Assembly (NCBI GenBank): GCA_028718945.1
Contig: JAQUKT010000005.1
Span: 1-47,527, forward strand
Direction of reading: 5' to 3'
DNA: 47,527 bases
Source of the DNA: Actinomycetota bacterium
GTDB lineage: Bacteria > Actinomycetota > Geothermincolia > Fen-727 > JAQUKT01
Of the stretch, positions 9,001-12,000 are shown piece after piece (position 1 is the first letter of the stretch; the number at the start of each line of letters is the position of its first letter). A program made the position numbers.

Positions 9001-12000
9001 AAAGGGGGTAAAGAGAGCTGCCTGATGATATGCTGTGTATGAGATGGATAAAGCCAAGAACAAAGCGATGGAAAAAATTCTGATAATCGAAGACGAAAAA
9101 ACGATGGCGGAGTCAATCAGCTTTATGCTGGAAAAGGAAGGCTACGATGTCGCTAATGCCTCAGATGGAGAGATGGGTTGGCGTCTATACAGAACCGGCG
9201 ATTATAGCCTTTTGATACTCGACCTAATGCTCCCGAGCCTGGATGGATTTGAGATTCTCAAGAGAGTCCGTGAGGATGGTCCCATGCCCGTCATAATCCT
9301 TACTGCTAAGGACTCTGAGGTTGACAAGGTGGTCGGGCTCGAAATGGGGGCGGACGATTACGTCACCAAACCGTTCAACATGAGGGAACTACTGGCCAGG
9401 GTGAAGACGATCCTGCGTCGCACTTCCGCAATAGTGGAACAGAAAGAGCCTTCGGTCCTCGAGGGCGGCCATGTAAGCGTTAACTTGGACCGCCACCAAG
9501 TCAAAGTGCGTGGAGAGGTCGTAGAGATTCCCCTCATTGAGTATAAGCTATTAGTACTTTTCTTGAAGAACCAGGGAAAGGTCCTATCCCGGGAATACCT
9601 TTTACGCGCCGGCTGGTCTGGAGAGTTCTACGGACAGACCAAGAGCCTTGACGTCTATATCAGCAGGCTGCGAAAGAAAATAGAGGATGACCCTTCCAAT
9701 CCCAAACTGATCGTGACGGTCAGGGGCATCGGCTACCGCTTTGAGCCGCAATAGCGGTCTTCCACCATCAATCCTCCTCTCGGGACCATGCAACGCAAAC
9801 ATCACAAATTCGGAGAACAGGATTGTAATTCTATTATTCCATTCGCAAGAGTTGACACTTTCCTGATAAAATAATCAGGAAATTTCTAATTAGAGAATAT
9901 TCGGCGGTAGAAATGGCAAGAAAATACGGGATGGCGAGATGCCGGGGTTGTGGCTTTCCGAAAATCGTAAACTTCTTTATGAAATGGAATGACAACGGAA
10001 CGGTCACCCAGCTCATGAGGAGGGACTACAGGGTTGTTATTCTTCATCAAGGGTTCATCGACAACCTTTTCTCACACATTGACACGAAACTCGGGCTACC
10101 GATAGAGCACATTGCCTTTGAGGCGCAGCGAAACGCAAGCAAAGCTGTTTTTCAGGCATTCTACGACAGAATTCCGGGAACAGCATATATGGTTAAGCCC
10201 AATTTTGCGAAAAGACTCGCGGTTGAAGGTTTCAACAGGGTGGCAGTAATAACCGGTCAGTGCCACTCTAAGACCATCGAGTATGTTCCCGGGAAATATG
10301 GGATCGCCAAGATAAGGAATCCATTCCATCTCGACCTCATGGCGGCAAATGTTGTTGGAGCGTTCGAGACCCTCGAGAGTATTCCATTCGAGTACAGCTG
10401 GAACGAAGAGCCTGACGAGTCCTACATAATCAGGGTTGATGCTGCCGGTGAGAAACTCGAGATGGCCTCACGAATGGAACTCGAGTTCAAAAAGCCACTT
10501 CCGGGAAACAATCCGCCGTCAAGGTGCGAAAGGTGCGGGGCGCCCACTGGTCTTTCCCATCTCAAGTGGCTGGAAGATGATGGCATCATACTGGACACAA
10601 GGACGGGCTCACGGGTGATATTCCTCGACGGATACATGGTGAAGACCGTTTTTCGAGAACTAACTCGTGAACTCGGAGATGTCATGAATGACATCGTCAT
10701 CGAGGCGCAGAAAGACTGGACCGCCGAGCACGTGCGGAAACTCGGGCTCGCAGGCAATAACAGCCTCTCCCCCGAAGAATTCGAAAAGAAATACATGGAA
10801 TATCTCGGGCTTTTCCCTCTTTACGGATGGGGAAATCCTATTCACACTTCAATTGGTCCCGCTGAGACCTCAATGACAATCGAGAACTGCTACGAAAACT
10901 ACACCATAGCAGGGATTTTGAGGGGTCTTTATGAGTCTCTCCTGAGAAGCAAGTGCACGGTGGAATTCACAGAAGATCGAGCGGACGTGGTCTCTTACTC
11001 TCTCAAACCGCTCGAGTAGAGAAGAATTTCAAACATCCGAAAAACTTTCTGAGATTGTTGTCGAGAGAGCCACTTTTTAACTATAATAATTCAGGTGAGC
11101 CGGGGATTTGCACCTGTCAGCCGGCTCAATATTTTCTTTGAGAAGTGATGATTTATGTTTTCGTTCAAAGGTAAACGCTTTTTCGTGATAACACTCACGG
11201 TGTCGCTCGCGGCATTTGCTGCGCCTGGCTTTGCTTCTGCGGCAAATTCGGGGGCGCCATACGGTCTTCAAATCGGGCTTCCCGACTCCAGCGCTGGAGG
11301 GTGCTTGAGGCTTGCCTGGCAAGTGGCAGACTCCGGGAAAGTCAGTCGCTTCACGGTTTATCGCTCGACAACTGCAAAAAGCGAGTTCAAGTCTGTTTTC
11401 TCGAGCCAATCGGAAATGACCGGTCAAGGCAAAATGGATTTTGTGGACAGCGGGCTTGAAGACGGGAAGACTTACTTCTACAGGGTTGCCACTTTCGACA
11501 GCACGGGGAAGGCATTAGGAACTACTGAAACAAAAGCATTCAAGCTGCCCGTGAAACGAAGTGCGGAAGTTGGGAGTGGTCCTTTCAAAAGCATCGTCAT
11601 ATCGATTGCGGACCAGAGAATATATTTCCTCGAGGACAATGTCTTGGTCAAGTCACATCTTTGCTCAACAGGAGTGGATTCCCATCCTACCCCTACCGGC
11701 GTTTTCAAAATCCTTTATCACGAGTACCTGGCAATCTCCGAAAAATACGGCGGAGTCTATTGTTACTGGTGGATGGGTTTTGCCCCGGACACCGGGATGC
11801 ATGCTCTACCATACGACCCAAAAACAAAAACCTGGACGGGGGCCAGCAGCCTCGGTCACAAAGCATCTCACGGGTGCGTAAGGCAAGCTGTTGCCGATGC
11901 CGAATGGGCATACAAGTGGGCACCGGATGGAACAAGGCTTGATGTGATTCCGCAGCACTACGAGGGTCCTCCGCCCACTCCACCGCCAATAACCGGAGGG

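What a model noticed while it worked through the whole genome (the two positions that open the first line are those of the whole stretch)
9913..11019. Class-signature expanded family of tandem V4R sensor proteins
Six paralogs here (g00288, g00154, g00662, g01277, g01365, g01415) belong to an unnamed 360-aa family made of two fused units, each a CxxC knuckle plus a V4R module of the MopR/PoxR phenol-sensor fold, with no output domain. The family is in every Geothermincolia genome, massively expanded, and was not found in other Actinomycetota.
Evidence so far: Internal duplication with invariant CxxC and Trp-x-x-x-Gly motifs; AlphaFold model pLDDT 92.8, pTM 0.91; top folds PoxR, MopR, DmpR sensor domains over about 180 residues, E 1.7e-4. 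51 of 51 class genomes, 3 to at least 39 copies; 0 of 279 other Actinomycetota sampled; no Pfam on 98 homologs; 493 clusters at 50% identity.
(Added by a program. Inside this text positions count along the whole contig: contig position 1 is position 1 of the stretch shown here. "Call 12" and the like, gene names such as g00115 and contig names such as C1 are that model's own, and its searches are not shown. The text may have been shortened before it was handed on; [...] marks where a part breaks off. The agent that wrote the report below was given it as the finding of a first reader that could run no searches.)

Follow-up and report, generated by a model that had tools for sequence, protein, structure and literature searches.

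The report
Expanded metal-stapled twin V4R receptor family
This gene belongs to an unnamed protein family, found in all 51 genomes of one class of anaerobic Actinomycetota (3 to about 50 matches each), built from two fused copies of the V4R small-molecule-binding fold with no output domain; each member likely binds its own small hydrophobic molecule and would signal to a still unknown partner.

Summary
Observation confirmed. The 368-aa ORF has five paralogs here. The family is in 51 of 51 class genomes and in 0 of 306 other Actinomycetota. Each half is a V4R unit. This is now shown by sequence, through archaeal V4R proteins, as well as by fold (PoxR Z 13.5).

It is not a phenol sensor of the PoxR/MopR kind. 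The phenol His and Trp are gone, the V4R zinc site is deleted (0 of 448), and no output domain was found. Four invariant N-terminal cysteines likely form one metal site joining the halves, since the two knuckles co-evolve. Unit 1's pocket-equivalent residues are small, conserved within subfamilies and different between them, as expected of ligand-specificity positions. This signal fades with coarse grouping.

Outside the class, 1,004 genomes of six other phyla gave only canonical V4R proteins or nothing. These include archaeal tandem V4Rs, so the tandem layout has precedent, although this duplication is independent. No conserved partner gene was found, and the ligand, partner and metal are untested. 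The scan noted this family twice before on other genomes. Verdict: new variant of a known kind.

The parts
9913..11019 (+). Whole gene, 368 aa, tandem knuckle-V4R protein (P0001)
9934..10446 (+). Unit 1 (residues 8-178): CxxC knuckle, three-stranded dimerisation sheet, V4R core
   Evidence: PoxR chain aligns to model residues 17-188, Z 13.5
9940..9960 (+). Knuckle 1, Cys10-x-x-Cys13-x-x-Pro16; predicted half of a shared Cys4 metal site
10222..10431 (+). Region holding the 13 unit-1 positions equivalent to the XylR/DmpR/MopR ligand pocket (residues 104-173): small and subfamily-specific
10447..10518 (+). Inter-unit linker (residues 179-202) with conserved Arg187 and Gly198
10519..11016 (+). Unit 2 (residues 203-368): second knuckle-V4R copy, more conserved, with bulkier pocket-equivalent residues
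10525..10545 (+). Knuckle 2, Cys205-x-x-Cys208-x-x-Pro211; predicted other half of the metal site

Best explanation
The gene encodes a stand-alone, internally duplicated V4R-fold protein with four invariant cysteines and no output domain, which likely works as a soluble receptor: each paralog would bind its own small, probably hydrophobic molecule in a pocket of the first unit and would pass the signal by contact to a separate, still unidentified partner. Shown: the duplication, V4R ancestry, loss of the canonical V4R zinc site and of the phenol His/Trp, absence of a fused output, the class-wide expansion, and purifying selection. Predicted: the two units interlock as a one-chain copy of the PoxR/DmpR-type dimer, and the two CxxC knuckles meet to bind one metal ion (zinc more likely than iron) as a staple that replaces the lost zinc sites. 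Inferred: unit 1 is the variable input and unit 2 is mainly structural or the shared contact face. The ligand, metal and partner are untested.
For: Fold: PoxR Z 13.5 (rmsd 2.9, 160 aligned), DmpR 12.3, MJ1460 V4R 11.3. Sequence chain: family profile to archaeal V4R profile, probability 98; that profile hits MopR at E 2e-15 and all 6 paralogs here at E 4e-13 to 6e-5. Interlocking: pTM 0.89; inter-unit couplings I43-V235, N136-D223, G29-G305 and H66-E253 among the top 25 fit the swapped N-terminal arm described for DmpR (PMC7264223, passages). Knuckle contact: 5 of the top 100 couplings join the two knuckle regions, about 0.8 expected. Pocket: 13 positions fixed beforehand from the XylR model (10.1101/2021.01.17.427014, passages). 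In unit 1, 6 of 13 rank in the top 18 of 330 columns for within-group conservation with between-group difference; against other core positions p=1e-4 and 4e-4 at the two finer groupings. Their summed volume is 1750 A^3, against 2023 in unit 2 and 1918 for the DmpR set; the His100-equivalent is Ala/Gly/Ser in 376 of 448. dN/dS is 0.08 at these sites against 0.18 overall in 20 close pairs. No fused output among 108 hits in 60 loci or among proteins of 687-2000 aa (weak evidence). Soluble: 6 of 448 exceed hydropathy 1.9. V4R domains are described as signalling in cis or trans (PMC2253512).
Against: No ligand, partner, metal or expression data. The pocket signal disappears at the two coarser groupings (p 0.12 and 0.23; unit 1 no better than unit 2, p 0.83 and 0.88), and unit 2 positions show a weaker signal of their own (p 0.017-0.075). 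The pocket was mapped through chained alignments, not coordinates; small residues could mean tighter packing rather than a cavity. The same fold serves non-sensors (TRAPP Z 9.7, YslB 8.7, BcsD 8.7). No signalling gene is a conserved neighbour. True sigma-54 activators occur in only 8 of 51 genomes and not in this one, and no KaiC-like ATPase was found here. Class-wide copy number does not track response regulators once genome size is controlled (r -0.05).
Confidence: 0.55

Rival explanations
1. Carrier or buffer proteins: each paralog binds a hydrophobic metabolite (fatty acid, acyl intermediate, aromatic, quinone or isoprenoid) and hands it to enzymes or membranes, with no signalling.
For: It needs no output domain and explains the pocket diversification equally well. 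Acyl-CoA dehydrogenase, CoA ligase, B12 radical SAM and FAD oxidoreductase genes recur among the neighbours. Ligand transport was suggested for Asgard TRAPPC3/V4R (PMC10933270, passages).
Against: Copy number does not track acyl-CoA dehydrogenase number after genome size is controlled (r 0.12, p 0.42). These genomes hold 4-42 such dehydrogenases, so adjacency is expected. Acyl-CoA dehydrogenases flank only 8 of 242 members.
Confidence: 0.2
2. Redox or metal switches: the Cys4 site (iron as in rubredoxin, or labile zinc) is the sensor, and oxidation loosens the pseudo-dimer.
For: The four cysteines are the most invariant residues. V4R cysteines mediate redox sensing in MsvR (PMC3729527, abstract). 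Weak rubredoxin-like Pfam matches in 4-5 of 22 members at E<=1.
Against: One redox input would not need up to about 50 paralogs with divergent pockets. MsvR's cysteines lie within the V4R domain, and this family has no conserved cysteine there. The Pfam matches are below cut-off and common to any CxxC.
Confidence: 0.1
3. Protein-binding adaptors or scaffolds without a small ligand, like Bet3/TRAPP, BcsD or YslB, possibly acting on the roadblock/MglA-type GTPase module of these genomes.
For: Fold matches at Z 8.4-9.7. This genome has a single-unit V4R gene in a block with two roadblock genes and a small GTPase. A tandem V4R-roadblock fusion exists in an archaeon (L331).
Against: Specificity-like variation falls on inward-facing pocket positions. 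No roadblock or GTPase appears among the Pfam-labelled recurrent neighbours. The single-unit V4R groups with the archaeal proteins, not with this family.
Confidence: 0.09
4. Enzymes (the superfamily includes predicted reductase and hydrolase members), or rapidly evolving defence proteins.
For: V4R is called ligand-binding or enzymatic, and some fusions are proposed immune effectors (10.64898/2026.10.19.760177, passages). Tandem arrays (72 of 242 members next to another member) and broken copies show birth-and-death evolution.
Against: There is no conserved His or Cys in either core (highest His frequency 0.38). Purifying selection is strongest at the pocket sites. No effector fusion was found, and no defence gene appears among the Pfam-labelled recurrent neighbours.
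Confidence: 0.06

Closest known systems
Archaeal stand-alone V4R proteins (Pfam PF02830, COG1719; MJ1460, PDB 2oso), including tandem and gene-pair forms in Aenigmatarchaeota, Thermoproteota and Asgard archaea
   Same: Detectable sequence homology in both directions and the same fold (Z 11.3). Several have no output domain, and some are tandem (L327, L331, L336, L337).
   Different: They keep the E-x-x-C-x(5-9)-C zinc motif (22 of 22 units, against 0 of 448 members) and lack the N-terminal CxxC (0 of 22). The family's two units group together, apart from them (support 98, quick tree), so the duplication is independent. Only 1-2 profile matches per archaeal genome were seen.
Sensor (A) domain of PoxR, MopR, DmpR, XylR (XylR_N PF06505 + V4R)
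   Same: Best structural match, including the N-terminal three-stranded dimerisation sheet; predicted intertwined pairing.
   Different: One chain instead of a homodimer. His100 and Trp128 equivalents absent. Zinc site deleted. No B-linker, AAA+ or DNA-binding domain. 6-16% identity.
H-NOX heme sensors
   Same: Same superfamily fold (Z 9.5); often stand-alone and acting in trans (recalled).
   Different: No conserved His; tandem layout; no adjacent cognate kinase or cyclase.
TRAPPC3/Bet3, BcsD, YslB
   Same: Fold match, Z 8.4-9.7. Mouse TRAPPC3 also replaced the zinc site (PMC10933270, passages).
   Different: The matches cover mostly the V4R core (model residues from about 37 onward), not the knuckle and first hairpin. 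No comparable paralog expansion is known to me (recalled).
Lineage-specific stand-alone signalling domains of archaea (HalOD1, NitrOD, MetOD1)
   Same: Many copies per genome (HalOD1 up to 49), stand-alone and taxon-restricted; MetOD1 is V4R-like (PMC5847659, passages).
   Different: HalOD1 and NitrOD are different domains. All of these also occur fused to receiver domains, whereas no fusion was found here.

Membership tests
V4R superfamily (descent) | Helical layer on a four-stranded antiparallel sheet (V4R/Bet3/H-NOX fold) | tested here: met
V4R superfamily (descent) | Sequence homology to bona fide V4R proteins | tested here: met
   probability 98; reciprocal profile hits all 6 paralogs
V4R superfamily (descent) | Gly-x-x-x-Gly doublet in the late helix (PMC2253512) | tested here: met
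   G/A145 and G149, G334 and G/A338
V4R superfamily (descent) | Gly doublet in the early helix (PMC2253512) | tested here: not met
   no Gly at 55% or more in residues 65-86 or 257-276
Pfam V4R PF02830 proper | Match to the PF02830 model | tested here: not met
   (0 of 22 members at E<=1)
Pfam V4R PF02830 proper | C-terminal Cys/Glu/Cys/Cys zinc site | tested here: not met
   0 of 448 members, 22 of 22 archaeal units
PoxR/MopR/DmpR/XylR regulators | N-terminal swapped dimerisation arm (XylR_N-like) | tested here: met
   model and co-evolution only; PF06505 touches 1 of 22 members at E 0.012
PoxR/MopR/DmpR/XylR regulators | Phenol-positioning His100 (or Tyr) and Trp128 | tested here: not met
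   Ala/Gly/Ser and Ile/Val in unit 1, Leu/Met/Phe and Ile/Val in unit 2
PoxR/MopR/DmpR/XylR regulators | B-linker, sigma-54 AAA+ and DNA-binding domains | tested here: not met
   members are 350-376 aa (5th-95th percentile of the matched span)
PoxR/MopR/DmpR/XylR regulators | Binding of an aromatic effector | not testable with these tools
   needs a binding assay
H-NOX | Conserved proximal His for heme (recalled) | tested here: not met
   highest His frequency in any column 0.38
Archaeal tandem V4R proteins | Common origin of the duplication | tested here: not met
   family units 1 and 2 form one side of a branch, support 98; quick tree, 47 rows, long branches, unrooted
Cys4 zinc-ribbon / rubredoxin-type site | Two CxxC pairs meeting at one metal ion | tested here: inconclusive
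   knuckle regions co-evolve (5 of top 100); coordinates and metal identity not available

The most novel reading that the evidence does not exclude
Geothermincolia run a receptor library found nowhere else. Dozens of soluble, metal-stapled twin-V4R proteins each read a different metabolite in unit 1. All of them dock through the conserved unit 2 and knuckle face onto one shared effector, for example the roadblock/small-GTPase switch of these genomes. This would be a bacterial parallel to the Bet3-longin-Rab logic of TRAPP and would replace one-component regulators for a whole class.
Probability: 0.12. Interest if true: 0.85.

Novelty: new variant of a known kind. Interest (0 to 1): 0.55.

Why it matters
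It is one of the largest unnamed families in a widespread class of anaerobes known to me only from metagenome-assembled genomes: up to about 50 matches per genome, 972 matches in 51 genomes. It is also a clean taxonomic marker. If the pocket reading holds, the ligands would reveal what these organisms eat or sense, and the family would offer several hundred natural single-chain scaffolds related to the phenol biosensors MopR and DmpR. It also shows a V4R lineage that lost the canonical zinc site and gained new invariant cysteines. The limits are that V4R domains, trans signalling by them, and tandem V4R proteins all have precedent.

Tried and rejected
Homodimer of the full protein with two zinc ions: 'no answer', score 0.00; not evidence either way. 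RNA runs: none was listed. Viral contigs: no relative with the single-protein query. PDB sequence search with family profiles gave only chance hits, such as antibody chains and ribosomal L37 at E near 1. Single-unit knuckle proteins: 3 hits among 4,524 candidates. The two I read are fragments of tandem proteins, and the third is 291 aa long. Longer fused forms: none among 7,622 candidates, weak evidence. Long open frames of 422-642 aa around members are unannotated N-terminal frame extensions that I judged spurious by eye, and the odd tails of P0199 and P0240 look like frameshift or read-through tails. Partner search: sigma-54 activators in 8 of 51 genomes; no KaiC-like ATPase here; no conserved neighbour among 242 members in 192 loci. 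Secreted DUF5719-like genes are the commonest neighbour (23 members, 17 genomes), but 8 of the 21 loci listed are near-orthologs of this gene and the genome holds 24 such genes, so I did not count this as a link. Copy-number correlations after size control: acyl-CoA dehydrogenases r 0.12, response regulators r -0.05. A post-hoc split gave r 0.79 for response regulators in this genome's order (n 21) and -0.21 in the rest (n 30); these are related genomes and I do not rely on it. Shared upstream motif: none convincing. Inverted repeats upstream of 18 of 235 members against 6.5% background, and the palindrome at 9859-9882 is unique in the genome. Cys-Cys couplings at ranks 205-208 were discounted as artefacts of invariant columns. 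Names for divergent hits: 30 of the 150 listed representatives were looked up, and only 2 gave a taxon, both Actinomycetota. The other 349 of 499 clusters were not shown. Literature searches found no description of this family. The library lacks most subscription papers, and I opened no supplements, where a genome paper on the class might list it.

Full report
Observation. The ORF at 9913-11019 (+) encodes 368 aa. It lies between a phosphate-transport/response-regulator block and a secreted L,D-transpeptidase-domain gene. Five more members lie on other contigs, 20-45% identical to each other. There is no Pfam or NCBIfam family. The halves are homologous (probability 99.9). In 448 full-length members the four cysteines are present in 448, 448, 447 and 447 sequences. 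The matched span is 350-376 aa and the proteins look soluble.

Range. All 51 genomes of the class match, with 3-46 matches each by single-protein search and 972 in total. Profile searches give up to 47-55, fragments included. Source names on homologs read Ca. Geothermincolia and Ca. Anoxymicrobiaceae, and six named class records used as controls all matched. No match was found in 306 other Actinomycetota.

I extended the count with a profile of single units. Chloroflexota gave 0 of 201 and Bacillota 0 of 251. Halobacteriota gave 1 of 251, at E 6e-4, which I did not read. Thermoproteota gave 9 of 151, Aenigmatarchaeota 5 of 151 and Asgard archaea 13 of 151, all weak, at E 1e-10 to 8e-4. Phylum labels come from the record titles of the centre genomes. 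The weak hits I read are ordinary V4R proteins: 9 of 11 V4R-like ORFs scanned match PF02830, one of the nine below the curated cut-off. These are samples, scored on a limited number of candidates per genome, so the result is 'not found in those searched'. Of 499 clusters in the 1.84-billion-protein search, 349 were not shown and most carry no taxon.

Ancestry. A profile of the archaeal proteins aligns to the family with probability 98. It finds all six paralogs of this genome and hits MopR at E 2e-15. V4R descent therefore no longer rests on fold alone. The structure searches agree: PoxR Z 13.5, DmpR 12.3, MJ1460 11.3, then TRAPP 9.7, H-NOX 9.5, YslB and BcsD 8.7. Foldseek gives PoxR E 7.4e-4 and H-NOX 9.1e-4. 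Archaea also have tandem V4R proteins, adjacent V4R gene pairs, a tandem V4R-roadblock fusion and what look like KaiC-V4R fusions, so the tandem layout is not new. What is particular here is the cysteine swap. The canonical zinc motif is in 22 of 22 archaeal units and 0 of 448 members, and the N-terminal CxxC is in 0 of 22 archaeal units. In a quick tree the family's two units fall together, apart from all archaeal units (support 98, long branches). The simplest history is that one V4R unit lost its zinc site, gained a knuckle, duplicated within the gene, and then expanded.

Anatomy. The model is confident as one body (pLDDT 90.8, pTM 0.89). Co-evolution (448 sequences, about 380 effective) links strand 3 of one unit to strand 3 of the other and each N-terminal hairpin to the opposite core. 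This is the intertwined geometry described for the DmpR dimer (PMC7264223, passages). Five of the top 100 couplings join the two knuckle regions, against about 0.8 expected. This suggests one Cys4 site on the pseudo-two-fold axis. I could not read coordinates, and the metal is unknown.

Pocket. I took 13 pocket positions from the XylR model (10.1101/2021.01.17.427014, passages) and carried them over through. The phenol His and Trp are absent in both units. In unit 1 the His100 and Tyr159 equivalents are mostly Ala, Gly or Ser, and the lining is about 170 A^3 smaller than DmpR's; in unit 2 it is about 100 A^3 larger. Unit 1 positions are conserved within subfamilies and differ between them: 6 of 13 are in the top 18 of 330 columns, with p 1e-4 and 4e-4 against other core positions at groupings of 44% and 50% identity. 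At 38% and 34% the signal is lost (p 0.12, 0.23), and unit 2 shows a weaker signal throughout (p 0.017-0.075). In 20 close pairs dN/dS is 0.18 overall, 0.08 at unit 1 pocket sites and 0.13 at unit 2 sites (rough, synonymous sites near saturation). Matched segments of unit 1 are more variable than those of unit 2 (p 0.004). This pattern fits paralogs held to different ligands and does not fit an arms race.

Output. None was found. There are no fusions. The commonest recurrent neighbour is a secreted family with 24 copies in this genome. Seventy-two of 242 members sit next to another member. Sigma-54 activators are present in 8 of 51 genomes and not here, and no KaiC-like ATPase was found. Copy number follows genome size (rho 0.67) and, class-wide, neither acyl-CoA dehydrogenases nor response regulators beyond that. 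The genome has a separate single-unit V4R beside a hydrogenase-like module, two roadblock genes and a small GTPase. It is a candidate partner system by analogy only.

Reading. The most likely reading (0.55) is a set of soluble ligand receptors acting in trans, which PMC2253512 (first of two parts read) allows for V4R domains in general. The rivals are carriers (0.2), redox or metal switches (0.1), ligand-free adaptors (0.09) and enzymes or defence proteins (0.06). It works like a PoxR-type sensor dimer cast in one chain, but it is not a member of that family or of PF02830 proper.

Prior knowledge. Eight literature searches found no description. Papers seen: PMC2253512 (part 1 of 2); passages of 10.64898/2026.10.19.760177, 10.1101/2021.01.17.427014, PMC7264223, PMC5847659, PMC10933270, PMC1274311 and PMC12917137; abstract and outline of PMC3729527. 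No supplements were opened. Two earlier notes of this scan describe the same family on other genomes; they agree with my reading but are not independent evidence. Verdict: real, class-restricted in all samples, a new variant of a known kind, interest 0.55.

Noticed in passing
G000:C3:26207-33554 (L344): A single-unit V4R-like gene heads a block with a NiFe-hydrogenase-like small and large subunit, a ferredoxin, two roadblock genes, DUF4388 and a small GTPase. It does not group with the tandem family. The scan noted it before.
   Followed up: partly
window 11155-13254, 33986-35902 and 22 other places in G000: A second expanded family: secreted proteins with a DUF5719-like tail, 24 copies in this 1.8-Mb genome.
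   Followed up: partly
window 3491-5206 (-): A thymidylate-synthase-like gene with a LAGLIDADG domain inside, probably an intein.
   Followed up: no
window 1992-3433 (-): An AbiEii-type toxin gene with an overlapping upstream ORF, a likely type IV toxin-antitoxin pair.
   Followed up: no
window 6203-9754 (+): A phosphate-binding protein, two permeases and an OmpR-type regulator, with no ATPase subunit or kinase gene between them.
   Followed up: no
window 9859-9882: A perfect 9-bp inverted repeat just upstream of the gene, unique in the genome and not shared by the family; terminator or operator.
   Followed up: yes
L327, L331, L336, L337, L322, L326, L328, L339, L333, L317: Archaeal V4R architectures: tandem V4R, tandem V4R plus roadblock, adjacent paralog pairs, apparent KaiC-V4R fusions, and HTH-V4R-like genes beside KaiC.
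   Followed up: partly
G021 (L070-L075), G036:C8 (L048): Arrays of up to six members, and many split or frameshifted copies in G021.
   Followed up: partly
class-wide counts: Within this genome's order, family size tracks response-regulator number after size control (r 0.79, n 21), but not in the other 30 genomes; post hoc.
   Followed up: partly
window 27796-33276: An SbcCD-like nuclease/ATPase pair and a DDE transposase.
   Followed up: no
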